Counted from the stretch's first letter, positions 26,976 through 64,000 are shown. The stretch is 64,000 nt of DNA from a virus (IMGVR_UViG_3300028833_000087:32001-96000), one strand, 5' to 3'. The notes: generated from the sequence alone by a model not told the origin. A program made the numbers and translations.

Positions 26976-27527
26976 ATGACTTTAAAATTTACAATAACAG
27001 TATTTGGAATATCTTTATTTTTAGGAATTGTTATATATTCTATAAGAGTATTACTAAATGTATATAAAGTGTACTCTAAACCAAAATATGAATCTTCTAA
27101 AAAATATTTTAGGGAATTATTATTACTTTTGCAAGATGAAGCTTTAAAATTAAGAGATAATACTGATCAAAATACATTACTTATAGAATTTGATGGTACT
27201 AAAGATATTATATTTTATTTATATAATAAAAGACCTAAAATAGATATAGATGGCGAAATATTCGTTTATATAGGCATAATGCCTTTTGGTAGAGTAATAA
27301 GCTATAGAGATTTAGATCCTATTTATATATTTGATACAGCAACTGGTAAAGAATATTGCAAATATAATAGATCTGTTTATAAAAGAATAGATAAAATGCG
27401 CAAAGTATTATCATCAGATGATCCAAATGTAAATGTGAATGTAACTTGGACAACAGAAGATAAAAAAGTTCAAGATATAAAAAGAGATTTTGTATTGGAT
27501 AATTTAGAAAGGGGAAGATTACCATGA
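26976..27527 (+). CDS. membrane-anchored hypothetical protein
   Basis: N-terminal TM helix; TATATTATA motif upstream. Confidence 0.65.
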   Translation: MTLKFTITVFGISLFLGIVIYSIRVLLNVYKVYSKPKYESSKKYFRELLLLLQDEALKLRDNTDQNTLLIEFDGTKDIIFYLYNKRPKIDIDGEIFVYIGIMPFGRVISYRDLDPIYIFDTATGKEYCKYNRSVYKRIDKMRKVLSSDDPNVNVNVTWTTEDKKVQDIKRDFVLDNLERGRLP

Positions 27528-28063
27528 ATGGTATTGATAAAAGCGTTTTATCTGTATTGATAAATATGAAATCTATAGGTATAGTCTATGATGAAAAGAA
27601 GGTGGAACCTATGGTTATTAAACCCATGGAAAATTATTTAGAGATTACTTTAGATAGAAGAGAAAGAAAACTGTTTAGTTCAGATTGTATGAGTAGTTAT
27701 ATATGTGATATAGCTATAAAGAATACTATATGTAATCAGGAAATCCATATGAAAACTGATGAGATTATGATGTCTGTATTTATAGATACAATGTATTATG
27801 CAGAGAATAATCCATCTACAGGTTTATGTTTTAACGATATGAATATAGCAATAACTAACGATGGTAAAATAGTAACCATGAATATTCATACTTTATTTAA
27901 TAATAATCCTTTACAGCAGACAGTTACATTTACTACAGATTCATTTGAATATTTTATAGATTGTTGTTACTTTATGTTTCTTATAGATATAGATGATGGA
28001 GATATGACAAAATATTATAATCATTATTACCAAGAGATGATTGAATGTAATGGAGGATTATAA
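27524..28063 (+). CDS. hypothetical protein
   Basis: 179-aa ORF in operon. Confidence 0.65.
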   Translation: MNGIDKSVLSVLINMKSIGIVYDEKKVEPMVIKPMENYLEITLDRRERKLFSSDCMSSYICDIAIKNTICNQEIHMKTDEIMMSVFIDTMYYAENNPSTGLCFNDMNIAITNDGKIVTMNIHTLFNNNPLQQTVTFTTDSFEYFIDCCYFMFLIDIDDGDMTKYYNHYYQEMIECNGGL

Positions 28064-28482
28064 TGATAATAGGAGAATATAAAACAAAAGAAAATTATAC
28101 AGTATTAATATCTGCTGGATCATTATATCCTTTAATAAATATAAATATATTAGATTGCCTTGGACTTACTGTAACTTCTTTTATGATGTCTCAAGATATG
28201 ATAAAAGAATTTTTTAACGATGTAGATCATTGTATCAGCGAAGCAGACTCATTTATATTTAAAATACCATATAATGGTATAAGAGATATGATGATTAATC
28301 TTGTATATAATGATGAGGATAAAATTGTAATACGATTAGCTGATACAGATGGAATTTGTATAAATCCTATAATAATGATGAATACAGATACTGAGCATTT
28401 AAAATTATTCTCTGCTCAAATTGAAAACGATATACATGATAAATATAATTTTTATAATGATTATATACAATATATATGGTAA
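28063..28482 (+). CDS. hypothetical protein
   Basis: 139-aa ORF with GGAGG RBS. Confidence 0.65.
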   Translation: MIIGEYKTKENYTVLISAGSLYPLININILDCLGLTVTSFMMSQDMIKEFFNDVDHCISEADSFIFKIPYNGIRDMMINLVYNDEDKIVIRLADTDGICINPIIMMNTDTEHLKLFSAQIENDIHDKYNFYNDYIQYIW

Positions 28483-28520
28483 TATAAAACTATTCAATTT
28501 ATTATAGGAGGTAATTTTAA

Positions 28521-28862
28521 ATGCATGACGGACTTTTAACAAAAGTACAAGAAGAAGGCGATCCGAATTTCGATCCGAGAATGCCGTATGTTAAGAAAGA
28601 TACTGTACAGCAGATGCAGAATCTTGCACAGCAATTTAAGTATTCATCATGTGATGAGATGTTTGGTATTTTGGATGTTTTAGAAGAAAATATTCAAGAT
28701 ATTAAAAAATACATGGAAGAATATCAGATCGCTGATGCCAATTTTGCTAATGGATCTATCGACAAAAAAGATTTATCTAAATCGAAAGAAAATGTCTTGG
28801 CAAATATTAGCAAAATGCAATATCTTGCACAGAAGCTTACAGGAATGAGCGCGTATCTGTAA
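28521..28862 (+). CDS. hypothetical protein
   Basis: 113-aa ORF with AGGAGG RBS, followed by a hairpin. Confidence 0.65.
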   Translation: MHDGLLTKVQEEGDPNFDPRMPYVKKDTVQQMQNLAQQFKYSSCDEMFGILDVLEENIQDIKKYMEEYQIADANFANGSIDKKDLSKSKENVLANISKMQYLAQKLTGMSAYL

Positions 28863-28903
28863 ACAATAACCCCTGGTTCATATGAACCAGGGGAATTTTA
28901 TTT

Positions 28904-31900
28904 TTAAACTTTTGAATCATCATAAGGTATTCCCATAATATCTTTTACAGATCTATCAAGTTCAATCATAAGCTTATTAATAGATCCAATCAAAGGAATA
29001 CTGGTAACAATACGCTTATCAATACTGGTATTACCTACGAATGCAGATACATGCTCATTAGGTCTGAAAGCAGTATAAGGTTCTTTACCCAAAGGAATCA
29101 AGTTTTTCTCAACACCTTTATTTGCAGCAAAATATACAATCTTATCACCGATACCTAATGTATCATAGTATTCTACATAATACTCTACAAGTATAGCATC
29201 TTGTGCTCGTTTCATTTTACCTGTAGGAGGTAACTTATAATGAGCAGGAAGCTCATTAGCATTAATACCATTATCTTTGTAGATTTTAGCTCTAGCCTTA
29301 ATAGGCTTCTCATACTCATTAACCATTTTAGCCATAGAAGGAGTCATCTCGTCTATGTCAATAGTTCTGAATATCTTAATGGCAGTAATAGTACCTGTTA
29401 CTTCAGATATAAGTTTCTTTTTACCTAACTCAGATACTTCATCTTTAGAAAGAGTTCTCATAAGAGAGTCAGCATCTTCATCTTTAAAAGGAACTTGCCA
29501 AGACATAAGAACATCGCCACATTCTACATGATTCCCTACTTTCAAATAGTTTACGATATTAACTTCTTTATCTAATACTGCTTTATATTGTAAGTCAATT
29601 CTTGTAGCCAAAGCCTTTGCCATTTCTTCTGTAATAACACCAGAGTCTTCAAAGTTCTCATCAGAGTTAATAATAGCTACTTTAGCTAATTTACCTACAT
29701 TGAAAGCAAGATTATCAGATTCACCCAAGCTATTAGAGAAACTAAGTTTATCATATGCTAATACTTGATTAGCTTTAAACTTCATTCCTACTTTTATTTT
29801 TTCATCAGCATCAAGTTTAAGAGGCACAAAATAACCACCATCAGAGTTATGCTGAATATTTTCTTGCAAATCAATATAATCTTTGGTACCATCTTTATAT
29901 TGTACAAGAATATACTTATTTTCAACATACTCTACAACTTCTCCATCTTGTTTAGACTTATAAGCAAATCTATTAGATGTCATATAAGGCATAGCTTCAT
30001 CTGTACCATTAGTAACCAATAAAGGATCTGATTCTTCCGTACGAACCTGATGTTTACATGTTTGAATGAATGTCATACCAACACGCATTGGCGAATCATG
30101 TGTAGATACAAAAGGAGTAATACCCTCAGTTACAGTAAGAGAATTAGTTGTATTCATCTTATCTGTAGAACCATCCGATGCTTTTACAAATCCTCTTTCA
30201 GGATCTACATTAGCATTCATAGTAAGCTGTCTAGTTACACCAGCATTACCAGCGAAACCTGTAGACATACCTAATACATTAAGCATAGTTTCATCATATC
30301 CACGCTTATCAAGTGAATAAGCTCTATCAGAATTCATACCGGAAGGCCCTTTAAAGGTAACTGCATTAGTAGCATCAATTTCATTTAAAGCATTAATACA
30401 AGAATCGGTAGCAGATACAGAATCAGTTAAGAATTTATCAATAACTGCAGTCTGCTTTATCGTAATACCAGGAGCATTTCTCTGATGTCTTATAGCATTA
30501 GCATAAGCTGCATAAGCATCAGCCATTACTTTATAGGTATAAGCAGCTACTAATTCATATCTTCTAAGTCTTCTAGAAGATGTATCTGTATGCTTGATAA
30601 ATTTATTATCACAAAGCAAACTATTAGCATATAACAATACAGAAACATAGTCTGTAGGCATCTTATACTTCTGAAGAATCTCTTCAGTAATAGGATCAAT
30701 AAGAAGATCTTTGAAGTTATCAAGACCATCAGCTTTCATTCTAGAAGCAAATTGATCCAAGAATTCCAAATATAAGTTTCTGGAATCTACTTCAGTAATA
30801 GAATGCGATTCTGTATCACATGCTTTAAGTCCATTAAGTAACAAACTAGCATCATAATCATTAGCATTGAATACTACAAATCCATCTTTAAATTTGATCC
30901 AATCGTAATTTAAATTAGCTCTATCTGCAGATGTTATTTTGTCTACTATCTGATATTCAATCTTACCTTTTTCAAGTGTACTTCTTAATCCTTCATGTAA
31001 TCCACAGATTACTATAGTAGGAATAAGACTACTCATTATAGAGCATCTAGAATAAGTACAAGACTTACTTGCTGATTGAGATCTTAATAAATCTAAGAAA
31101 TCTTTCCAATCATGCTTTTCTTCTAAGAGTACCAGTAAATAATGAATGAATGATTCTCTAGCATCATTAGCCATATAAATAATTCTATCTTCTTCTTTAT
31201 CATGAGCAAAAGGAATACCTTTAGTATCATCAATCTTATATTTAGCTCTAATATCATCTTGATTAAAATATAAAGTTAATGATTTGGATTCAATTCTATC
31301 ATAGACAGAACCAATATCAATATAATCTATAGGAAGATTATATTTATTAGATACTTTAATAGTATTACCAACCATAAACTTAATATTTCTACCCTGATAT
31401 TTATCAGCAGCTTTTAAGAATCTAGATACATTAGCCATAGATCTACCAGTCTGAATCTTATTAGCACCACGAGGTCTATTATAAACAAAGATTTTATTAT
31501 AATTAGATATAATCTGCGCAGCATTTACTTCAGTTTTCAATATAGGCATATTAAAGAACTGATTCTGTAAGCTATAATAGTTGCCTCTAAGAAGGAATCT
31601 ATTATCTACCATAATAGGAATATCTAATTTAATAGTAAATCTTTTACCTCTAAAGTCTTCCATTTCTACAGTATAAGTTTCAATTCTATCTTCAGAATTA
31701 GTAGCATCTTCTACAGAAATATTTCTAATACCAATAGGAATTGATGTCTTAGTAAAATGCTTAAAAATATTAATAATATCTTTATCAATATTATAATGCT
31801 TATCAAATTCAGGATATTTCATATCTTTCCAAAGATCAGCATTAGGACCACTTACAGGAATATCAATAGTAGTAGCCTTTGTATCTACAGTTTCCTGCTT

Positions 31901-33718
31901 TAATATCTCATCTATAGTTTTACCTTTAATAGTTTTATTATTTAATTCTTCATCAAGTTTATTTAATCTTGTTGATCTACCAGCAGTCAAATCGATATTA
32001 CTATCATCATTATTTTCAGCATCAAGATCCATAAGCATCTGCTTTAATTCTTCATCATTTTCCATATCATCCATTGCTTGATCTTCGGATGATACATCAT
32101 CTTGATATACTGCAGTAGCTATTTTATCTGCTATATGCTGTTTAGTAACATCGTTTTGCTTTATTTTACTGAATTTAGGATTCTGAGTAAGAGCAGTTTT
32201 AGAATAATTCTTCTTTTCTGCATTTTCCTCTTTCTCTATATTTTCAACTTTCTTATTAGTATTTTTATTATCTGCTTTATAATATTTCTTAGCAGTTTGA
32301 ATATTTTTATTAATTAACGCTTTATTAGCTATAACAGCTTTTGTAGCAATATTAAGTTCAGGAGTAATATCTACACCTTTAGCAAGTTCAATTTTATCTA
32401 CAATATTGGCTTTAATTGCCTCTTTAGAATCAATATTTTCAGCGCTTGTATCAATATCTTCTTCGTCAAAAGGCTCATTTTTGATCATCTTAGTAATAAA
32501 TGTTTTATATTTAATACATAATCTTTTAAGAGGAATTCCTTCTGATTTAATATCTTTGAAATTCATCTTAAAATAATTACTATCAGATACAAATACAATA
32601 TCTGTATCACCAAAAGTAGAATATAATGTATTGTCTTCTCCATTAAACATTAACCAATAGATTAATGATATTGGATTTACATCTTTCTTATAATTCCAGA
32701 AATCTGCAATATGCTTCTTATTCCAATCTAATACTGGAATAAAAATAGTTTTCTTCTTGTAACCAGCAGCTTTCACATTAGGATTATTAATTAATCTATT
32801 CATAAATGATAAGAATAAATTTAATCCTTTATATAAACTCCAGTTATTATTCTGGCAGAATATATTAATATAATAAGAAAGATCTACAAACAGATTTCTA
32901 TTAGCATATCTTTTAATTTCAGGGAAAGTATATTTAATCCAAGGATTATCTTTCTTAGCCTGATCATATAAAAGAATAACTTCTTTACGCTTTTTCATTC
33001 TATTAGCATAAAGAATTTGTTTTAATTTTGTATCTTCTTTCTTACCTTCTAATATAGTATCTACATCTTCTCCAATAAACATCATTTTATCGCAAAGATT
33101 GATACCACCTATATATCTACCATTTGAATCAAAGTATTCTTGAATTTCTTTTACTGAAATTATACTTTCATCATTAAGACTTTCATTCACAGGATGATAA
33201 TAATTACTAAATCTATTATTCTTTCCTACAGTAGGATGCATATTAAATTTCTTTATAGCTTTAATAATATTTTTTGCTAATTCTTCTTCATGCTCTTTAT
33301 CTACATAATTAAAAAACTTAATAGCAGATTTTACATGAGCTTCTGTATCAAGAGGATATTTCCTTTGAGAAGGAATACCAAAAGCAGAATCAGGCAATTT
33401 ATTTCTTTCAGCTGCAGACATCTCTGTTATAGACTGATAAGATTCAAATTCAGCAGATTCTTTTATATTTTCATCTTCTTCCTCTACCTCTTCTCCAACT
33501 TTACCGGAAATTAAGAATGTAACTCCTTTATCAATATAATATGATTCGTATCTTAATTTATTGATAAAAAGTTTATGATTCATTAATCTATTAGAAGAAC
33601 TATAATTTGGAGTAAGAAGATACAAAGCAGAGTATTTCTTTTTACTATCTTCTATAGTAGGCAAAAAAGTTTTTGTCCTATAGATTTTTAAATTTTTCAT
33701 ATTATCTATGAGAATCAT
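28904..33718 (-). CDS. phage multisubunit RNA polymerase beta subunit, N-terminal part (likely virion RNAP)
   Basis: Beta-like motifs TPF..HDSPMRVGM..Q..H (cf. DDANRALMG.NMQRQ), NFEDSGVI, GDK.....NKGV; the protein stops before the C-terminal GQRFGEME region, as in split phiKZ-type beta. Confidence 0.88.
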   Translation of the reverse strand: MILIDNMKNLKIYRTKTFLPTIEDSKKKYSALYLLTPNYSSSNRLMNHKLFINKLRYESYYIDKGVTFLISGKVGEEVEEEDENIKESAEFESYQSITEMSAAERNKLPDSAFGIPSQRKYPLDTEAHVKSAIKFFNYVDKEHEEELAKNIIKAIKKFNMHPTVGKNNRFSNYYHPVNESLNDESIISVKEIQEYFDSNGRYIGGINLCDKMMFIGEDVDTILEGKKEDTKLKQILYANRMKKRKEVILLYDQAKKDNPWIKYTFPEIKRYANRNLFVDLSYYINIFCQNNNWSLYKGLNLFLSFMNRLINNPNVKAAGYKKKTIFIPVLDWNKKHIADFWNYKKDVNPISLIYWLMFNGEDNTLYSTFGDTDIVFVSDSNYFKMNFKDIKSEGIPLKRLCIKYKTFITKMIKNEPFDEEDIDTSAENIDSKEAIKANIVDKIELAKGVDITPELNIATKAVIANKALINKNIQTAKKYYKADNKNTNKKVENIEKEENAEKKNYSKTALTQNPKFSKIKQNDVTKQHIADKIATAVYQDDVSSEDQAMDDMENDEELKQMLMDLDAENNDDSNIDLTAGRSTRLNKLDEELNNKTIKGKTIDEILKQETVDTKATTIDIPVSGPNADLWKDMKYPEFDKHYNIDKDIINIFKHFTKTSIPIGIRNISVEDATNSEDRIETYTVEMEDFRGKRFTIKLDIPIMVDNRFLLRGNYYSLQNQFFNMPILKTEVNAAQIISNYNKIFVYNRPRGANKIQTGRSMANVSRFLKAADKYQGRNIKFMVGNTIKVSNKYNLPIDYIDIGSVYDRIESKSLTLYFNQDDIRAKYKIDDTKGIPFAHDKEEDRIIYMANDARESFIHYLLVLLEEKHDWKDFLDLLRSQSASKSCTYSRCSIMSSLIPTIVICGLHEGLRSTLEKGKIEYQIVDKITSADRANLNYDWIKFKDGFVVFNANDYDASLLLNGLKACDTESHSITEVDSRNLYLEFLDQFASRMKADGLDNFKDLLIDPITEEILQKYKMPTDYVSVLLYANSLLCDNKFIKHTDTSSRRLRRYELVAAYTYKVMADAYAAYANAIRHQRNAPGITIKQTAVIDKFLTDSVSATDSCINALNEIDATNAVTFKGPSGMNSDRAYSLDKRGYDETMLNVLGMSTGFAGNAGVTRQLTMNANVDPERGFVKASDGSTDKMNTTNSLTVTEGITPFVSTHDSPMRVGMTFIQTCKHQVRTEESDPLLVTNGTDEAMPYMTSNRFAYKSKQDGEVVEYVENKYILVQYKDGTKDYIDLQENIQHNSDGGYFVPLKLDADEKIKVGMKFKANQVLAYDKLSFSNSLGESDNLAFNVGKLAKVAIINSDENFEDSGVITEEMAKALATRIDLQYKAVLDKEVNIVNYLKVGNHVECGDVLMSWQVPFKDEDADSLMRTLSKDEVSELGKKKLISEVTGTITAIKIFRTIDIDEMTPSMAKMVNEYEKPIKARAKIYKDNGINANELPAHYKLPPTGKMKRAQDAILVEYYVEYYDTLGIGDKIVYFAANKGVEKNLIPLGKEPYTAFRPNEHVSAFVGNTSIDKRIVTSIPLIGSINKLMIELDRSVKDIMGIPYDDSKV

Positions 33719-57982: not shown

Positions 57983-58525
57983 ATGAGAGTTATTACAGCA
58001 GTAGAACAGTATATTCCTAAGGAAGGTGATATTACAGTATTTCTTGCAGGTGGTATCACTAATTGCTGGGAATGGCAGGATAAGATAATTGAATTATTGA
58101 TGGAAAAAGGAGATGCTAAGCAATCAAATGAATTAGTTATCTTTAATCCTCGCAGAAAGAATTTTCCTATTGATGATCCGAATGCTTCTTATGATCAGAT
58201 TTGCTGGGAATTTAAAATGCTTGAGAAAGCAGATATCTTTTCTATGTATTTCTGCGGCGATACTCCTTCAGACCAGCCTATCTGCATGTATGAATTAGGT
58301 AGAAATATCGTTCGTATGCAGATGAAGTATCCTGCAGAGTGGCAGAAAAGAATCATTGTCAGCTTAGAAAGTAAATACAAGAGAAAAAATGATGTAATTA
58401 TTCAGACTGAGTTAGCGACAAACGATAAGATTAATGTAAGACGCTCCGATGATCCTCTTAATGTAATAGACATGCATGTAGCTGATATCTATACTAAATA
58501 TATTAATTTAATAACTAAATTTTAA
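57983..58525 (+). CDS. nucleoside 2-deoxyribosyltransferase-like protein
   Basis: VFLAGGIT...WQ, IFNPRR, QI.WE...LE.AD, PIC.YELG. Confidence 0.82.
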   Translation: MRVITAVEQYIPKEGDITVFLAGGITNCWEWQDKIIELLMEKGDAKQSNELVIFNPRRKNFPIDDPNASYDQICWEFKMLEKADIFSMYFCGDTPSDQPICMYELGRNIVRMQMKYPAEWQKRIIVSLESKYKRKNDVIIQTELATNDKINVRRSDDPLNVIDMHVADIYTKYINLITKF

Positions 58526-58832: not shown

Positions 58833-59930
58833 ATGAAAGTTCTGCTTATAGGTATTGGTGCTGCTGGTAATAAAGCTGTAGTTCAAGCTGTAGAAGATAA
58901 GGTTATTGCTGAAGAAGATTCTATTATTATTAATTCTACTGATAAAGATTTCCCAAAAGAATTTAATGGAAAGAAAATGATTTTATCTCCTAATAATCAG
59001 GGATGTGGTAAAGAAAGAGCAACTGCCTATGCTTTTACTAAAGCTCTAATTGAAAATGATACTCTTAATATTGATTGTTCTAAATATAATACAGTAATTG
59101 TTTGTGCATCTGTTGAAGGTGGTACAGGATCTGGTTCAGCTCCTTTGATTGCTAAATACTTTAAGCATGTCCATAATAGAAATGTACATGTGATTGCTTT
59201 TATTGGATTTGAAGATGATCCTAGAGGATTATCAAATACTGTAGAATTCTTTAAAGAATTAGAATCTGATCTTATTGTACAGACTATTAGAAATTCTTCT
59301 TTTATGAAACAAGCTGGTGGTAATAAGTTTAAAGCTGAAGAATTAGCTAATAAAGAAATGAGCAAGAGAATTAAGATTATTACTGGTCAGCAGTTTCTAA
59401 ATTCTGAACAGAATATTGATGATACTGATATTCTTAAAGTATCAAATACTGCAGGATATATGACTGTAGAAGAAAAGTATTTAGATAAGAATTTAGAAAC
59501 TGTAGAAGATTTTAATAAAGTGGTTAAGAATATGATTTATAATTCTCACTCTATTAAATCTAATTCTCCTAAGGCTATTCGTATTGGTGTTATTCTTAAT
59601 ATTGAACCTGGTTCAGAAGATGCTATTGATTATACATTTACTGATATCACTGAAGCATATGGTAATCCTTATGAAAAATATCTTCAGAAACAATGGGATG
59701 GTAATAAAGAATATATTCAGTGGATTGTATCTGGTATGCAGATGCCGTTAGATGAGATTAAAGAGATTTATGATAGATATCTTGCTGAATCTGATAAGGT
59801 ACAGAAAGACGCTGATACTTTCTTTAAAACAATGGAAACAATGCAGATGGATAGTAGTAATTCTAGATTCGATATGATTAAACCTGAAGAAAAGAAAATG
59901 AGCAAAGATGCATTTTTAAAGAATCTATAA
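58833..59930 (+). CDS. tubulin/FtsZ-family GTPase (PhuZ/TubZ-like)
   Basis: IGIGAAGNK, GCGK, tubulin signature GGTGSG, T7-like NIDDTD. Confidence 0.9.
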   Translation: MKVLLIGIGAAGNKAVVQAVEDKVIAEEDSIIINSTDKDFPKEFNGKKMILSPNNQGCGKERATAYAFTKALIENDTLNIDCSKYNTVIVCASVEGGTGSGSAPLIAKYFKHVHNRNVHVIAFIGFEDDPRGLSNTVEFFKELESDLIVQTIRNSSFMKQAGGNKFKAEELANKEMSKRIKIITGQQFLNSEQNIDDTDILKVSNTAGYMTVEEKYLDKNLETVEDFNKVVKNMIYNSHSIKSNSPKAIRIGVILNIEPGSEDAIDYTFTDITEAYGNPYEKYLQKQWDGNKEYIQWIVSGMQMPLDEIKEIYDRYLAESDKVQKDADTFFKTMETMQMDSSNSRFDMIKPEEKKMSKDAFLKNL

Positions 59931-59935
59931 TTAAA

Positions 59936-59961
59936 ACCCTGGACGAATATTCGTCCAGGGT
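59936..59961 (+). terminator. hairpin ending the tubulin gene
   Basis: accctggacgaa/ttcgtccagggt. Confidence 0.75.
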
Positions 59962-60010: not shown

Positions 60011-60526
60011 TTAGTAATTGTGTAGTTGCGTACTACGATGTGCGGTTAGGCTAAGTATATGCTTTGTATTGTGCGGTAGAGCGATGTGGTGTATATGTAT
60101 AGTAGTGTATTATTTTAGTTCAGTAGAGTAAAGTAAATGTGAAGTGAAGTGCTGAAACTTGTAGTGTGGCATATGTAAGGTTTGACAATGTATTGTCGAG
60201 TAAATGTATAGTGAAGTATGGTAACGCCTAGTCAAGTACAGTAGTGTAAATGCATAGTCGAGTCCTGTGTCGTAAATGTATTGCCAGGTAGTATGGTGTA
60301 CTAGTATAGTCACTTACTGCTCAGTATAGTCAAGTAAATGTATTGTGACGTAGCATAACGTTATGTTCAGCGGTGTAAATGTATAGCGACGTAAAGTTTA
60401 GTTCTGTAAATGTATGGTAATACACATTGTGCCAATACGTGGTAATGTATTTGTAAAGTAAGGTATATTTAAATTACGTGAAGTAAATGTAAAGTAAGGT
60501 TGGGTAAAGTATTATTAAGTAAATAT
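60011..60526 (+). repeat. pentamer-periodic array, left arm: (NNNGY)4-8 blocks separated by AAATGT-like hexamers
   Basis: Example: aaatgt-atagt-gaagt-atggt-aacgc-ctagt-caagt-acagt-agtgt-aaatgc; about 14 blocks by manual parse. Confidence 0.9.
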
Positions 60527-60539
60527 TTAAAGAAAGGAG

Positions 60540-60845
60540 ATGGTGTTTATGCATGATATGAGAAGAAAGAAAGATCGAATTTGGCGTGAAGCCAAAGGAA
60601 TCTGCTCTCATTGTGGTCATAAGATCTATAGTATGAGAAATAAAACTTTAGATCATTTTATTCCAAAATCATGCTTCGGATCTTATGATGAGAGAAATTT
60701 ATTTGCGCTATGTAAAAGATGTAATGAAGAAAGGGGGAATGCTCTTGTAGGACTTGATTACTATGTATATGCGTCTGAAAACAAAAAGATGCAAGCATAT
60801 CAATACGGACTTGAATACAATACCAGAACATCTTCTATGCAGTAA
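60540..60845 (+). CDS. HNH endonuclease (McrA-like, two CxxC pairs) embedded in the array
   Basis: CSHCG...TLDHFIPKS..GS....NL..LCKRCN..RG; AAAGGAG RBS (start could be ATG 60549). Confidence 0.88.
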   Translation: MVFMHDMRRKKDRIWREAKGICSHCGHKIYSMRNKTLDHFIPKSCFGSYDERNLFALCKRCNEERGNALVGLDYYVYASENKKMQAYQYGLEYNTRTSSMQ

Positions 60846-61178
60846 ATGTATAGTGTAGTGAAGTGGAGCCCAGTAAATGCAAGTTAAAGTCTAGTATCAT
60901 ATGGTATAGTACAGTAAAGTATATGTAAAGTACGGTGTAGTAAAATACAGTAAATGTTTTGTAGGGTATTGTGCCATTTTGTGAAGTGATTGTATGGTGA
61001 AGTAGAGTACAGTAAATGTAAGGTGTAATGGAGTATGGTCTGGTAAAGTAGATGTGAGGTAACGCACAGTTTTGTGCTGTTGGATGATGTATATGTAAGG
61101 TGAGGCGTAGCAGTGCTGAGTCGTGTGGTGTAATGGCGAAGTGGTGCAGAGTCATGCTTTGTGATGTAAAGTAATTGT
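60839..61178 (+). repeat. pentamer-periodic array, right arm
   Basis: Example: atatgt-aaggt-gaggc-gtagc-agtgc-tgagt-cgtgt-ggtgt-aatggc; 9 blocks by manual parse. Confidence 0.9.
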
Positions 61179-61183
61179 TCGAT

Positions 61184-61223
61184 TATACAAGCATACTTAC
61201 AATTTAGTAAGTATGCTTGTATA
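61184..61223. terminator. 17-bp perfect hairpin closing the array
   Basis: tatacaagcatacttac / gtaagtatgcttgtata; there is no clear U tract, so it may be a processing or stability stem. Confidence 0.6.
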
Positions 61224-61244
61224 TATCCGAAAGGAGAATATTTA

Positions 61245-62138
61245 ATGAGTTTATTTGATAATTTTTTAAATCAAATAAAAGAAAGTCCTAAATCTGAAAA
61301 AGTTCATATTCCTCTATATAATACTATAGAGTATAAAATATCTACTTTAGTAGATATGATAAATAATGTAGATTCTATATCTGATGAAGAATTAAAGAAT
61401 GTAATCATAAGACAGCATAAAATGATATTAAATTATGATCCATTCTTATCTAATCAAGATACTAGAAGATCTGCATTAAAGTTATTTACAAATAAAAGGT
61501 TCCTTAATTTATTTCTTGAAGTTATTGGATTCTTGGATTTATCAAGAGAACAAGTTATTTGTATAAATAAACTTGCTTATGATTATTATGTATCTAATAA
61601 TAAAGAAAAAGAAATATCAGAACTATTATTATCTATTTGCTATCTTATCAATAATCAATTGATTATTCGACTTTCTGCAAAGATGGATATTACAAATGCG
61701 AGAGTTTTATCAATGATAGCTAACTCTACATTTAAAATAGAAAAGAAAGTTCATAGAGTAAATGTATTCTTTTTAAAGAAAGATACAAATAAAGAATTTA
61801 CTGTACAAGATTATATAGATATTTATATAATACTATTTGATCATTTTAGAGAATTATTTACATATTCAATGTTTGAAGCTTGGACAACTCCTATCACAGA
61901 TGAGTGTGCTCAATTACAATATGATAGATTCTTAAGAATGTCAGCAGCTTTAATAATTATGCTTGATAGTTTAACAAGTAAAGATATAGCGACAGTATTA
62001 AGAGAATATGGCTACACTTTGTCTATGATACCGAATAGTCCTATTAGATTTTCTATAAAGAATATGAAAAAGTATGATAGAATCAAAGATATAGCACATA
62101 GTCTTGAAGTAAATGAAAATGATATTTTAATTCCCTAA
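61245..62138 (+). CDS. hypothetical protein
   Basis: 297 aa with AAGGAG RBS; helical character. Confidence 0.72.
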   Translation: MSLFDNFLNQIKESPKSEKVHIPLYNTIEYKISTLVDMINNVDSISDEELKNVIIRQHKMILNYDPFLSNQDTRRSALKLFTNKRFLNLFLEVIGFLDLSREQVICINKLAYDYYVSNNKEKEISELLLSICYLINNQLIIRLSAKMDITNARVLSMIANSTFKIEKKVHRVNVFFLKKDTNKEFTVQDYIDIYIILFDHFRELFTYSMFEAWTTPITDECAQLQYDRFLRMSAALIIMLDSLTSKDIATVLREYGYTLSMIPNSPIRFSIKNMKKYDRIKDIAHSLEVNENDILIP

Positions 62139-62236: not shown

Positions 62237-63127
62237 ATGAAAATTAAAGCTTTTAAAGGATTTAATCCTGATATGACTTGTAAAAAGTTTAAATTTGTTC
62301 CTGGCGTGGAATATAGTATGGATGAAGATAAAATTAATTTGTGTACAAGAGGATTTCATTCTTGTATTATTCCTCTGCAATGTTTCAGCTATTACAAACC
62401 ATTAGCAGGTGTATTTCATGAAGTAGAAATAGATGGTGCTATGGAAATAGCAAAAGCTAATTCCAAGATAGTATCATCTAAAATTACTGTAGAAGAACAT
62501 GAATTAGATTCTAAAGAAATAGTTAATGAAACTTATGATTGTATTGAGATGCTTACAGGTGATACAGATTATCACGATACAATATTAGAAGATCTTTCAG
62601 AAAAATTAAAAAATTCTAAAATTAAAGGATCTATTAATGTTTCTAATGCTTATCGTTCTATAGCAGCATCTAATATAGATGATGATTTAGGAAATGGTTC
62701 TGTTATTAATACTGGCGGTAAATCTATTGCAGCATCTGTTGGTAATGATAAATGCGTTGCTACATCTGATACTAATTCTATAGCTGCATCTGTTGGTAAA
62801 ACAAATAATGTGATATCTGCTGGATCTAAATCTATCGCTGCATCTATAGGAGATTATAATTTGGTAACTGCAGGTAATCAGGGTGTAATTGCAGTATCTG
62901 TTGGTGAGCAATGTAAAGTTATAGCTGAAAAAGCAGGTTCTATGGCTATTATTACTACAGATTCTATTGGAAAAGGAGCTTTAAATTCTTATCTTGTATT
63001 TGTAAATACAGTTAAGAATGCTGATGAAACTACTATAGATAAAGTTATTACTATATTTATTGATGGTTCAAAATATCGTCCAAATACTTGGTATAAATTA
63101 GATAATGGTGTTGTAAAAGAAGCATAA
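62237..63127 (+). CDS. phage protein with KAFKGF/GFHSC N-terminal domain and ~11-aa SIAAS repeats (probable beta-solenoid)
   Basis: KAFKGF..DMTC, LC.RGFHSC..PL.CF.YY; repeated SIAAS(V/I)G; YRPNTWYKL. Confidence 0.72.
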   Translation: MKIKAFKGFNPDMTCKKFKFVPGVEYSMDEDKINLCTRGFHSCIIPLQCFSYYKPLAGVFHEVEIDGAMEIAKANSKIVSSKITVEEHELDSKEIVNETYDCIEMLTGDTDYHDTILEDLSEKLKNSKIKGSINVSNAYRSIAASNIDDDLGNGSVINTGGKSIAASVGNDKCVATSDTNSIAASVGKTNNVISAGSKSIAASIGDYNLVTAGNQGVIAVSVGEQCKVIAEKAGSMAIITTDSIGKGALNSYLVFVNTVKNADETTIDKVITIFIDGSKYRPNTWYKLDNGVVKEA

Positions 63128-63254
63128 TATATAAGCCCTAGAGGAGAAATCCTCTAGGGTAAATTTTTTCATAATTATATATAATATATGTGTAAAATAG
63201 TTTTGATTGTATCCCTTATACAATCATTAAAAATCATTTAAGGAGGAAACAAAA

Positions 63255-64000
63255 ATGGTTGAAGAACAGGTAATGAAGGTGCGTTTAACGTTCCTGCAGG
63301 ATGTGCTGGGAACACAGCCCACAGACTCAAAGATCTATGAGTCCTTTCTGGCTACCAAGATGAGAAAAGAAATGGAGAAATCTGGGTACAAGGAAGAGAA
63401 GATCGATGAGAAGATCAATAAGGGTATGGAAGCACTTCCGAACAACGAAGATGGGGAATTCTATCGTGATGGCGTTACGGTATTTCCTCGTCTGAAGATC
63501 AAGGAAACCGGAGAAGAGATCCCGGCTATTGAAGGATACTTACTCAAAGGATTCTTCAAGAATGCATGCTGGGCATGTGCAAAAGCAGATGGATTGTCCG
63601 CAGAACTGTCAGCTTACAAAAAGTACATTGACAATATGACTGATGTAAATGAGATCAGTCCTATCATTGTCAACGACGATGTAAAGAAATACATGGAGGA
63701 GCATAAAGGAACTCTTCCTTTATTTCAGCGTCCGATCAGAATTTCCGACAGAAATGGTGAGCGTGTAGCGCTTGCTTGCTCAGAGTATGTACCGGCTGGT
63801 AGCTATATCGATTTTGAAATCACAGCTATGTCTGAAGAGGCATTGAATTTCGTTATCGAATGGCTCAACTACGGCAAGCATAATGGACTTTGCTGCTGGA
63901 GAAATTCTGGTAAAGGAAAGTTTGACTGGATCGATCTTGATCTTGGTGCTAAGAGGGAGATTAATCCCAAAGCAATCAAGAAAAAAGGTAAGAAAAAGAA
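63255..64000 (+). CDS. Cas7/Csm3-like RAMP-fold protein (runs off the window end; absent from the ORF track)
   Basis: AGGAGG RBS, at least 248 open codons; KVRLTFLQDVLG, PAIEGYLLKGFFKNA, SEYVPAGSYIDFEI, glycine-rich loop GLCCWRNSGKGKF. Confidence 0.8.
   Translation, partial: MVEEQVMKVRLTFLQDVLGTQPTDSKIYESFLATKMRKEMEKSGYKEEKIDEKINKGMEALPNNEDGEFYRDGVTVFPRLKIKETGEEIPAIEGYLLKGFFKNACWACAKADGLSAELSAYKKYIDNMTDVNEISPIIVNDDVKKYMEEHKGTLPLFQRPIRISDRNGERVALACSEYVPAGSYIDFEITAMSEEALNFVIEWLNYGKHNGLCCWRNSGKGKFDWIDLDLGAKREINPKAIKKKGKKK

What the first reader, a model, noticed from the sequence alone, without database searches (positions are those of the whole stretch)
60011..61178. Two-level periodic array: 5-nt NNNG(T/C) register punctuated by 6-nt A(A/T)ATG(T/C) delimiters
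Seen: GT/GC recurs every 5 nt for ~850 non-coding nt while the first three positions vary freely. Every 4-8 pentamers a hexamer (aaatgt, atatgt, aaatgc, aattgt, agatgt, gattgt, actagt, atttgt, aatggc) shifts the register by one, giving 26-46 nt units. The array opens and closes with aattgt. The first pentamer after a delimiter is biased (atagt, attgt, aaggt, aaagt). Blocks are non-identical, so this is not a slippage microsatellite. The + strand is G/T-rich and C-poor, so an RNA copy would be largely unstructured. Inference: constant scaffold positions plus variable information positions, processed into short RNAs.
Basis: seen in the sequence. Interest (0 to 1): 0.9.

Follow-up and report, generated by a model that had tools for sequence, protein, structure and literature searches.

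The report
Phage VIPR guide-RNA arrays (GY/NNN type)
The odd five-base periodic DNA is real. It is almost certainly the guide-RNA array of a phage VIPR system, a CRISPR-related RNA-guided DNA silencer first described in 2026, here in a variant with a two-base constant motif and very short guides.

Summary
Window 60011-61178 holds two blocks of NNNG(T/C) pentamers. An A(A/T)ATG(T/C) hexamer comes every 4-8 pentamers, so units are 5n+1 nt long. A 101-aa HNH gene splits the two blocks. A third block lies just past the window end.

The arrays belong to a module with the 254-aa gene at 63255-64019. That protein folds as a Cas7/Csm3-like RAMP (Z 12.7). In 79 of 80 viral loci and 70 of 77 metagenome loci, its homologues sit next to a same-strand period-5 array.

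This matches the VIPR systems of three 2026 preprints: a Vipr RAMP plus pentamer-repeat vrRNAs. Those papers already list YNNNG repeats, staggered arrays and WGT/NN motifs.

A related strain keeps every listed G and changes the next base only between T and C. It also loses or swaps whole units. Sheep-gut metatranscriptome contigs match vipr and array pieces exactly, which is weak evidence of transcription.

The upstream tubulin gene is a neighbour only. No natural target was found and the reading rule was not settled.

Verdict: a new member of a known, very recent kind. The scan has met VIPR-like systems on other DNA before.

The parts
60011..60531 (+). vrRNA-like array block 1a. It has 16 units, each made of 3-8 NNNG(T/C) pentamers plus a hexamer A(A/T)ATG(T/C). 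It starts about 50 nt after the tubulin gene's terminator hairpin (59936-59961).
   Evidence: An RNA-library contig matches 60219-60369 exactly. A related strain replaces 60341-60451 with one grammar-conforming 5-pentamer unit.
60540..60845 (+). 101-aa HNH endonuclease gene lying between the two array blocks. Its stop codon overlaps a delimiter (cagTAAatgt). It is either a lineage-specific insertion (a homing-type gene) or a lineage-specific accessory nuclease.
   Evidence: Pfam HNH 3.3e-8, PHROG HNH families. It is absent from the syntenic relatives L143 and L164 and from all other vipr loci. It is present in strain X3.
60846..61178 (+). vrRNA-like array block 1b, 9 units, ending with AATTGT.
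   Evidence: An RNA-library contig matches 60780-60936 exactly. Strain X3 lacks 60991-61093, which is exactly units 17-19 (26+36+41 = 103 nt).
61181..61225 (+). Strong hairpin directly after block 1b, without a clear U-run. It may end the array transcript.
   Evidence: Sequence read (tatacaagcatactta...taagtatgcttgtata). The terminator scan did not call it. Its role is inferred only.
63255..64000 (+). vipr-like gene, 254 aa; the ORF runs on to 64019, just past the window end. It encodes a single-RRM Cas7/Csm3-like RAMP with the G-loop GLCCWRNSGKGKF. After a terminator it is followed by array block 2 at window-equivalent 64085-64480 (11 units, delimiter ATATGT).
   Evidence: AF2 pLDDT 90. Foldseek E 6e-8 to Csm3. 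VIA-align Z 12.7 over residues 1-236. 111 unnamed homologue clusters. Array adjacency in 79/80 and 70/77 loci. RNA-library contigs cover 63215-64000 in two runs. Block 2.

Best explanation
The interval holds two of three guide-RNA arrays of a phage VIPR (Viral Interference Programmable Repeat) system. Its protein is the 254-aa Cas7-like RAMP gene at 63255-64019.

Proposed mechanism, by analogy with the characterised type II system. The + strand is transcribed. One Vipr protomer binds each pentamer. The G-loop Trp-Arg pair holds the constant G and pyrimidine. The variable bases are presented for non-contiguous pairing with double-stranded DNA of a competing mobile element, which silences it.

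Each 26-46-nt unit, bounded by the A(A/T)ATG(T/C) hexamer that shifts the register by one, is one short guide. There are about 36 guides in the genome.

Shown here: the grammar, the RAMP fold, the gene-array linkage across phages, selection on G/Y, and turnover of whole units between strains.

Inferred: transcription (weak hint only), cutting at the hexamers, filament formation, DNA targeting, and which bases are read. Most likely the two bases after the pyrimidine are read with one target base skipped. The base before G would take the place of the first G of the canonical GGY.
For: (1) Grammar and statistics.

(2) Against two distant array-bearing viral contigs (L028, L039) the only shared protein is the 254-aa ORF, and in each it lies next to an array.

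(3) Of 80 IMG/VR loci encoding a homologue, 79 have a same-strand period-5 G array close to the gene. Of 77 testable metagenome loci, 70 do.

(4) Fold: all 50 listed VIA-align rows look like Cas7-family RAMPs by their entry titles (Csm3, Cmr4, type VII Cas7, Csf2, Cas7-11-like), Z 10.9-12.7. The Atlas structural neighbour is Csm3.

(5) Published VIPR definition: a minimal locus of a RAMP plus pentamer-repeat vrRNAs, mostly viral, with seven types. It includes alternative NNNGG, YNNNG and NNNNG repeats, staggered arrays offset by 1 nt, and HNH accessory genes. Non-canonical WGT/NN and TGH/NN motifs are also reported.

(6) The SUSP1 Vipr family aligns colinearly with this family and shares the G-loop G.G.WR...GRF. 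In the cryo-EM work W178 and R179 hold G2 and Y3, while D177 and H17 read G1. Here W-R is kept and D177 is Q/C, which fits a motif that has lost the first G. This residue mapping rests on a weak alignment.

(7) Selection: variable columns among near-identical guide variants are 7.4/8.6/10.1% at N1-N3, 2.9% at G and 6.5% at position 5. Among diverged pairs the figures are 30-34% at N, 4.4% at G and 22% at position 5. In strain X3, 16 listed array substitutions include none at G and six at position 5, all T<->C.

(8) Whole-unit deletion and unit replacement between strains.

(9) Exact RNA-library contigs on vipr and on two array pieces; apart from short mismatched pieces of unrelated contigs, none on the tubulin, 297-aa or DUF7666 genes of the same stretch.

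(10) N1N2 dinucleotides fit sense codon positions 1-2 better than any other phase or the pooled model, in this phage and in relatives. NNN does not fit in-frame codons.
Against: Sequence similarity to a published Vipr is weak (hhalign probability 18.7%, E 1.3e-3), so homology rests on fold, G-loop motif and context.

The canonical GGY is not present; only G-Y is constrained.

There is no conserved 3' tail or pseudoknot, and the RNA folds no better than shuffles.

No conserved accessory (vap) gene was found in this clade.

No natural target was found under any rule.

Guides of 4-8 repeats would read only 8-16 bases under the published two-base rule, which seems short.

N3 evolves like N1 and N2 rather than faster, so a three-base reading is not excluded.

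RNA evidence comes from assembled contigs of metatranscriptome libraries, which can carry DNA.

The VIPR literature is still at preprint stage.
Confidence: 0.85

Rival explanations
1. The arrays are DNA-level protein-binding sites, for example a centromere (tubC/tubS-like iterons) for the TubZ/PhuZ-like tubulin encoded directly upstream. The hexamers would keep a 5.2-bp half-turn phase with the helix.
For: The gene at 58833-59930 is tubulin-like (Pfam Tubulin 2.8e-10, PHROG PhuZ 1.5e-13). The mean period is 5.18-5.20 nt, half of 10.4 bp. The tubulin-array order is kept in relatives L143 and L164.
Against: Five related phage contigs keep the tubulin gene and the following 297-aa gene about 190 nt apart, with no array and no vipr. 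Nearly all of the roughly 150 array-bearing loci shared nothing with this genome's tubulin or 297-aa genes. All have the RAMP gene on the same strand as the G-rich strand. Constraint is on one strand's G and Y, with T<->C allowed, which fits base-specific RNA recognition rather than duplex geometry.
Confidence: 0.03
2. The arrays are transcribed and bound by the RAMP protein but are not guides. They would act as a sponge, decoy or scaffold, for example soaking up a rival phage's Vipr or a host RNA-binding protein, or nucleating a protective filament.
For: No target was found. Guides are very short. Published work shows satellites and phages using solo vrRNAs as decoys against rival VIPR systems.
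Against: High entropy and fast turnover of N positions, plus cassette-like unit replacement between strains, are what guide repertoires show and what a sponge does not need. The phage carries its own vipr next to an array. N1N2 composition resembles codon positions 1-2.
Confidence: 0.07
3. The locus is a degenerate or orphan CRISPR-type III or TIGR-Tas-like system rather than VIPR.
For: The closest solved folds are Csm3 subunits. An HNH gene is present, and TasH effectors carry HNH.
Against: There are no 25-36-nt repeats, and no cas1, cas2, cas10, cas5 or cas6 hits in the ORFs scanned (PADLOC and Pfam). There is no Nop-domain protein and no alternating 8-12-nt dual repeats with 9-nt spacers, which define TIGR arrays. 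The period is 5 nt, not 6 or 18.
Confidence: 0.02

Closest known systems
VIPR systems with non-canonical repeats and staggered arrays (bioRxiv 10.64898/2026.04.26.720920, methods and figs S17-S18; 10.64898/2026.10.21.760802, fig S10)
   Same: A lone small RAMP gene in a phage, flanked by same-strand pentamer-repeat arrays. The constant motif is reduced or changed (YNNNG, NNNNG, WGT/NN, TGH/NN are listed). Guides abut with a 1-nt offset. HNH accessory genes are known in some types.
   Different: Here only G+Y are constrained, with 0.1 bit at the third position. Units are only 4-8 repeats. About 36 units sit in three blocks up to 2 kb from vipr. An HNH gene interrupts one block.
Type II VIPR of Escherichia phage SUSP1 (Vipr ALH47069.1, vap1, four ~100-nt vrRNAs)
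   Same: RAMP of about 200 aa with the G-loop G.G.WR...GRF. Pentamer register on the coding strand, seen directly in SUSP1 at KT454805 27600-28000 on the minus strand. Arrays lie up- and downstream of the gene. It is phage-borne.
   Different: SUSP1 has GGY/NN with 9-16 repeats per guide, a conserved 3' pseudoknot tail and a vap1 partner. Here the motif is xGY/NN (or GY/NNN) with 4-8 repeats, no structured tail, a hexamer delimiter instead, and no conserved partner. The profile-profile match is only 18.7% probability.
Csm3/Cas7 backbone of type III-A CRISPR effectors
   Same: Best structural match (Z 12.7, 163-177 aligned residues, 10-13% identity). In both, a RAMP filament binds a guide RNA with a fixed nucleotide period.
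   Different: The CRISPR period is 6 nt with one flipped base, and it needs Cas10, Csm2, Csm4, Csm5, Cas6 and a repeat-spacer array. None of these is present here.
TIGR-Tas (Science 2025, PMC12045711)
   Same: Phage-borne, non-CRISPR tandem guide arrays with weak repeat conservation, about 36-nt units, and optional HNH.
   Different: Tas proteins are Nop-domain proteins. TIGR units have two alternating 8-12-nt repeats and two 9-nt spacers. There is no 5-nt register.

Membership tests
VIPR | Vipr protein: a small single-RRM RAMP with G-loop and thumb, related to Cas7 | tested here: met
   AF2 model pLDDT 90. Foldseek probability 1.0, E 6e-8, and VIA-align Z 12.7 to Csm3 over the whole length. 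C-terminal G-loop GhGxWRxxGxGxF.
VIPR | Sequence homology to a published Vipr (SUSP1 family, type II) | tested here: inconclusive
   hhalign of A1 against A2: probability 18.7%, E 1.3e-3, colinear over 189 columns with a shared G-loop. The discovery paper itself says RAMPs share little sequence similarity.
VIPR | Tandem pentanucleotide repeats with constant and hypervariable positions, flanking vipr on its strand | tested here: met
   for this phage. 79/80 viral and 70/77 metagenome loci of the protein family.
VIPR | Constant motif GGY (canonical) or a related consensus | tested here: met
   Canonical GGY is not present. G 86% and Y 99% are kept, and the base before G is free. This falls in the published alternative YNNNG class and near WGT/NN.
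VIPR | Conserved structured 3' tail capping each vrRNA (a type II feature) | tested here: not met
   Fold z-scores 0.00 and -0.01. No Rfam match, including no hammerhead, at E <= 0.1. Units are bounded by a hexamer instead. This is a type II trait, not required of all types.
VIPR | An accessory vap gene next to vipr | tested here: inconclusive
   No neighbour is conserved across 82 + 80 loci. The 297-aa gene is a tubulin-linked gene, not a vap. HNH is lineage-specific. The DUF7666 gene recurs in only 8 + 4 loci.
VIPR | vrRNAs are expressed and bound by Vipr | not testable with these tools
   Only a hint: exact-match contigs from two sheep-gut RNA libraries on vipr and array pieces.
VIPR | Targets read by the variable bases with one target base skipped per repeat | tested here: inconclusive
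   No hits above decoys in about 1 Mb of local phage DNA. Three database scans gave chance-like hits. Composition of N1N2 favours codon positions 1-2.
Type III CRISPR-Cas | CRISPR repeat-spacer array plus Cas10 and other Csm/Cmr subunits | tested here: not met
   No such repeats. No Cas hits in PADLOC or Pfam for the neighbouring ORFs.
TIGR-Tas | Nop-domain Tas protein and dual-repeat or stem-loop arrays with 9-nt spacers | tested here: not met
   The linked protein is an alpha/beta RAMP, not a Nop domain. The array period is 5 nt with no alternating repeats.
TubZRC / tubulin partition centromere | Iteron array that travels with the tubulin gene | tested here: not met
   Five tubulin-bearing relatives lack any array. 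Arrays travel with the RAMP gene instead.

The most novel reading that the evidence does not exclude
This Vipr clade uses a different code from the published one. With only G-Y sequestered, all three variable bases of each pentamer would pair with the target (3 read per 5 RNA bases, with 0 or 1 target base skipped). Guides of only 4-8 repeats would then still specify 12-24 bp. In this phage the embedded HNH nuclease might also turn silencing into cleavage.
Probability: 0.2. Interest if true: 0.75.

Novelty: new member of a known kind. Interest (0 to 1): 0.45.

Why it matters
VIPR was described only in 2026 and is proposed as the viral ancestor of the CRISPR RAMP proteins. Its diversity is barely mapped.

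This example adds a large clade: more than 570 IMG/VR contigs, plus gut, rumen and environmental metagenomes. Its constant motif has shrunk to two bases, guides are very short, and they are packed head to tail with a one-base register shift.

The G-loop difference (Asp to Gln/Cys next to a conserved Trp-Arg) gives a testable structural reason for the relaxed motif.

Comparison with a related strain shows whole guides being deleted and swapped. That is direct evidence of repertoire turnover in nature.

It also shows that a reader working from sequence alone can recover the scaffold/information logic of such arrays.

Tried and rejected
1. Tubulin centromere or helical-phase DNA element. Rejected because tubulin-bearing relatives lack arrays. 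The 5.2-nt mean period is treated as coincidence.

2. The 297-aa gene (61245-62138) as a VIPR accessory. Rejected: it is an all-alpha solenoid (pLDDT 91) with no significant fold match. It follows the tubulin gene in phages that have no VIPR.

3. TIGR-Tas, CRISPR, type III toxin-antitoxin repeats, TRAP-like triplet sites and primase-site arrays. All were considered from memory or the literature. They were dropped once the RAMP linkage was found.

4. Rfam: no family in the window at gathering scores, nor in L001 3900-12500 at E <= 0.1. No tRNA.

5. DNA similarity to 50,697 phage records: none. tblastn of the protein found only 4 unannotated human-gut phage records.

6. Target search, local. 889 guides of at least five pentamers, under 12 pairing/skip rules, were run against about 1 Mb with reversed decoys. 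There was no excess. The apparent excess for the period-5 rule was unmasked homologous arrays. There are no self-targets in the 121-kb genome. There are no targets in syntenic relatives.

7. Target search, IMG/VR. Three guides were scanned as N1N2-x patterns.
- Guide at 60208: 6 hits, and the pattern-frame translations do not look like real proteins.
- Guide at window-equivalent 64332: 23 hits. Eleven lie in one ~600-aa protein family (motif FIREIYPF), antisense, with the skipped base at the wobble position. These are close relatives of one another in contigs with much higher G+C, so they count as one chance-level hit.
- Guide at 60017: 4 hits.
- N3 matched at chance level throughout.

8. Stop-codon depletion of NNN triplets: partly present in relatives, but confounded by TA/CTAG avoidance.

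9. The search for related loci with the tubulin protein found nothing. With P0001 alone in metagenomes it found nothing.

11. X4 joints that skip the array have 20-25-nt sides at 88% likeness, so they were not used.

Full report
**What is in the sequence**

Window 60011-61178 lies in an intergenic stretch after the terminator hairpin of a tubulin-like gene (58833-59930). It is made of NNNG(T/C) pentamers.

Every 4-8 pentamers a hexamer A(A/T)ATG(T/C) shifts the register by one base, giving units of 26-46 nt. A 101-aa HNH endonuclease ORF (60540-60845) splits the tract into block 1a (60011-60531, 16 units) and block 1b (60846-61178, 9 units).

- Autocorrelation peaks at 5, 10 and 15, and at 5n+1 lags.
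- Period-5 power of G is 5.5 and 3.8, against a maximum of 1.5 in 500 dinucleotide shuffles.
- Position 4 is G in 86% of pentamers. Position 5 is T or C in 99%. Positions 1-3 carry 0.1-0.2 bit.
- The pentamer after each hexamer is biased (A, A/T, not C), so there is a conserved core of about 13 nt, (A/T)GT-A(A/T)ATGT-A(A/T)DGT.

The window is part of a single 121,433-bp, 29% G+C phage contig. It encodes an RNA polymerase beta-like protein, a DnaB-like helicase and an anaerobic ribonucleotide reductase. A scan of the whole genome finds the sustained period-5 signal in only three places: the two blocks above and a third block at genome 96085-96480, just past the window end, with delimiter ATATGT.

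**Following the array to a protein**

An exact-pattern scan of IMG/VR with a delimiter-centred motif found two distant viral contigs with the same grammar (L028/L055 and L039). Comparing all ORFs of those loci with this genome gave a single shared protein: the 254-aa ORF at 63255-64019. In each case it lies next to an array.

That ORF has no Pfam, PHROG or PADLOC match. It has 111 unnamed homologue clusters.

- In IMG/VR more than 570 contigs encode a relative. Of the 80 loci fetched, 79 have a period-5 G array close to the gene on the same strand.
- In an independent set from metagenomes, 70 of 77 testable loci do.
- The relatives use the same grammar with other delimiters (AAAGGC, AATGGC, AATGGT, AATAGT) and a looser fifth position.

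**What the protein is**

The AlphaFold2 model (pLDDT 90.4, pTM 0.85) matches Csm3 and other Cas7-family RAMPs. Foldseek gives E 6e-8 and probability 1.0. VIA-align gives Z 12.7 over residues 1-236. All 50 listed VIA-align rows look like Cas7-type subunits by their entry titles. The ESM Atlas gives viral uncharacterised clusters, with Csm3 as structural neighbour. The C-terminus carries a RAMP glycine loop, GLCCWRNSGKGKF (family consensus GIGQWRNSGKGRF).

**What is known**

A literature search and earlier notes of this scan both led to VIPR systems. A VIPR locus is a lone Vipr RAMP, usually one accessory gene (vap), and vrRNAs made of tandem pentamers in which GGY alternates with hypervariable NN. 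They are found mostly in phages.

- Vipr protomers polymerise on the RNA, one per repeat. They sequester GGY and present NN.
- NN pairs with DNA while every third target base is skipped.
- The result is transcriptional silencing of competing phages or satellites.
- The discovery paper lists seven types, alternative NNNGG, YNNNG and NNNNG repeats, staggered arrays offset by 1 nt, ribozyme-interspersed arrays, and HNH-containing accessory proteins.
- A later preprint reports non-canonical WGT/NN and TGH/NN motifs next to Vipr-like folds.

The array here, read as Y-NNN-G, falls in those published alternatives. The 5n+1 unit length looks like the staggered architecture, although I could not see the figure.

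**Direct comparison with the type II exemplar**

In phage SUSP1 (KT454805) the two-gene locus with flanking NNGGY tracts is plainly visible. A profile of the SUSP1 Vipr family aligns colinearly with the present family, but weakly: probability 18.7%, E 1.3e-3.

The G-loops match: GVGDWRPRFGRF against GIGQWRNSGKGRF. According to the cryo-EM paper, W178 stacks on the second G and R179 helps to hold the pyrimidine. D177 and H17 read the first G. In the present family Trp-Arg is kept while the Asp is Gln (Cys in this phage).

That would explain why only G-Y is constrained. It also suggests that the base before G occupies the first-G pocket without being specified. This mapping is an inference from a low-confidence alignment.

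**Evidence that the grammar is functional**

- Among clusters of near-identical guide variants, variable columns are 7.4, 8.6 and 10.1% at N1-N3, 2.9% at G and 6.5% at position 5.
- Among more diverged homologous guides, mismatches are 30-34% at N1-N3, 4.4% at G and 22% at position 5.
- A bovine-gut metagenome contig (run X3) carries a strain of this phage. Over the laid stretch the contig matches at about 96% identity.
- In that strain, 16 listed substitutions in block 1a include none at G and six at position 5 or the last hexamer base, all T<->C (registers).
- The same contig lacks 60991-61093, which is exactly three whole units. It replaces 60341-60451 (three units) with 29 nt that read as one perfect new unit: AAATGC, five pentamers, AACTGT. 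Guides are therefore gained, lost and swapped as cassettes.

**Transcription**

Two sheep-gut metatranscriptome runs hold exact-match contigs over vipr (63215-64000, both runs). One of them (X13) also holds exact contigs over 60219-60369 and 60780-60936.

Only short, mismatched pieces of unrelated contigs touch the tubulin, 297-aa or DUF7666 genes of the same 5.2-kb stretch. This uneven cover argues against plain DNA carry-over, but assembled contigs cannot show strand, ends or level. I treat it as a weak hint.

As RNA the arrays fold no better than shuffles. There is no Rfam match, including no hammerhead. This fits a protein-bound single strand without a structured tail.

**Neighbours**

- Two syntenic relatives (L143, L164; tubulin 61-65% identical) share the order tubulin, terminator, array, 297-aa gene, vipr. 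L164 also has a short array after vipr. Both lack the HNH gene and the DUF7666 gene.
- Five further relatives keep the tubulin gene and the 297-aa gene side by side with no array and no vipr.
- So the tubulin and the 297-aa alpha-solenoid protein are a separate conserved pair. The VIPR parts were inserted around them.
- The HNH gene is present in strain X3 but in no other vipr locus. Its stop codon overlaps a delimiter. I put it at about two to one an independent homing-type insertion rather than an accessory nuclease.
- No vap gene conserved across the clade was found.

**The code and the targets**

I could not settle which bases are read.

- Local searches of 889 guides of at least five pentamers under 12 rules, against about 1 Mb with reversed decoys, gave no excess. 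There are no self-targets.
- Three IMG/VR scans with N1N2-x patterns gave chance-like hits. Eleven hits of one guide fall in one ~600-aa protein family, antisense, with the skipped base on the wobble position. They are mutual relatives in contigs of much higher G+C, so they count as one chance-level hit.
- Indirectly, N1N2 dinucleotides fit sense codon positions 1-2 better than any other phase or the pooled model, both here and in relatives. NNN does not fit in-frame codons. Together with the G-loop argument this favours the published two-base, one-skip rule.
- Against that, N3 does not evolve faster than N1 and N2. Guides of 4-8 repeats would then read only 8-16 bases.

**Verdict**

The element is a VIPR guide array, so this is a new member of a kind described in 2026, not a new kind.

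The run labels place the phage in sheep and cattle gut metagenomes. The best-holding runs may be the source sample, and one bovine-gut run laid here carries a related strain.

Other windows of this scan have produced VIPR-like systems with other motifs.

Noticed in passing
window 58833-59930 and 61245-62138; loci L223-L227, L143, L164: A TubZ/PhuZ-like tubulin gene and a 297-aa all-alpha solenoid protein form a conserved gene pair in this phage lineage, about 190 nt apart where no array intervenes. The 297-aa family has 256 representatives and no significant fold match. It may be a partner of the phage tubulin.
   Followed up: partly
L001 9299-10264 and 10505-11752 (minus strand; genome 97299-99752, outside the window): The anaerobic ribonucleotide reductase NrdD is encoded as two ORFs, an N-terminal part with ATP-cone and a C-terminal part, separated by about 240 nt. 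No Rfam intron was found at E <= 0.1. It could be a split gene, an unrecognised intron or an assembly error.
   Followed up: partly
window 28904-33718 (minus strand): A 1604-aa RNA polymerase beta-like protein (PHROG 3148, E 1.7e-136) in a phage of only 121 kb that also has a PhuZ-like tubulin. Multisubunit RNA polymerase plus tubulin is otherwise a jumbo-phage trait.
   Followed up: no
window 62237-63127: A DUF7666 protein (Pfam 4.2e-24, PHROG 4433) lies directly upstream of vipr. Homologues of its N-terminal domain occur within a few kb of vipr in 8 of 82 viral loci and 4 of 80 metagenome loci. Its link to VIPR is unclear.
   Followed up: partly
window 60843-60849: The HNH ORF ends in cagTAAatgt, so its stop codon is part of an array delimiter. 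The gene sits exactly on a unit boundary, as expected if it inserted at, or recombined through, the delimiter.
   Followed up: partly
loci L230-L233, L236, L237, L239, L244-L246, L249: The N1N2-x pattern of the guide at window-equivalent 64332 matches a conserved FIREIYPF motif in a ~600-aa protein of eleven IMG/VR contigs. The match is antisense, with the skipped base on the wobble position. It was judged a single chance-level hit, because the contigs are mutual relatives with much higher G+C than this phage.
   Followed up: partly
L136 (KT454805) 27480-29520: The SUSP1 VIPR locus can be read straight from the record: two unnamed genes (146 and 195 aa) flanked by NNGGY tracts, each followed by a hairpin tail. 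All are annotated only as hypothetical.
   Followed up: yes
window 57983-58525: A nucleoside 2-deoxyribosyltransferase-like protein (Pfam 2e-14) lies two genes upstream of the tubulin gene. It could hint at DNA base modification in this phage.
   Followed up: no
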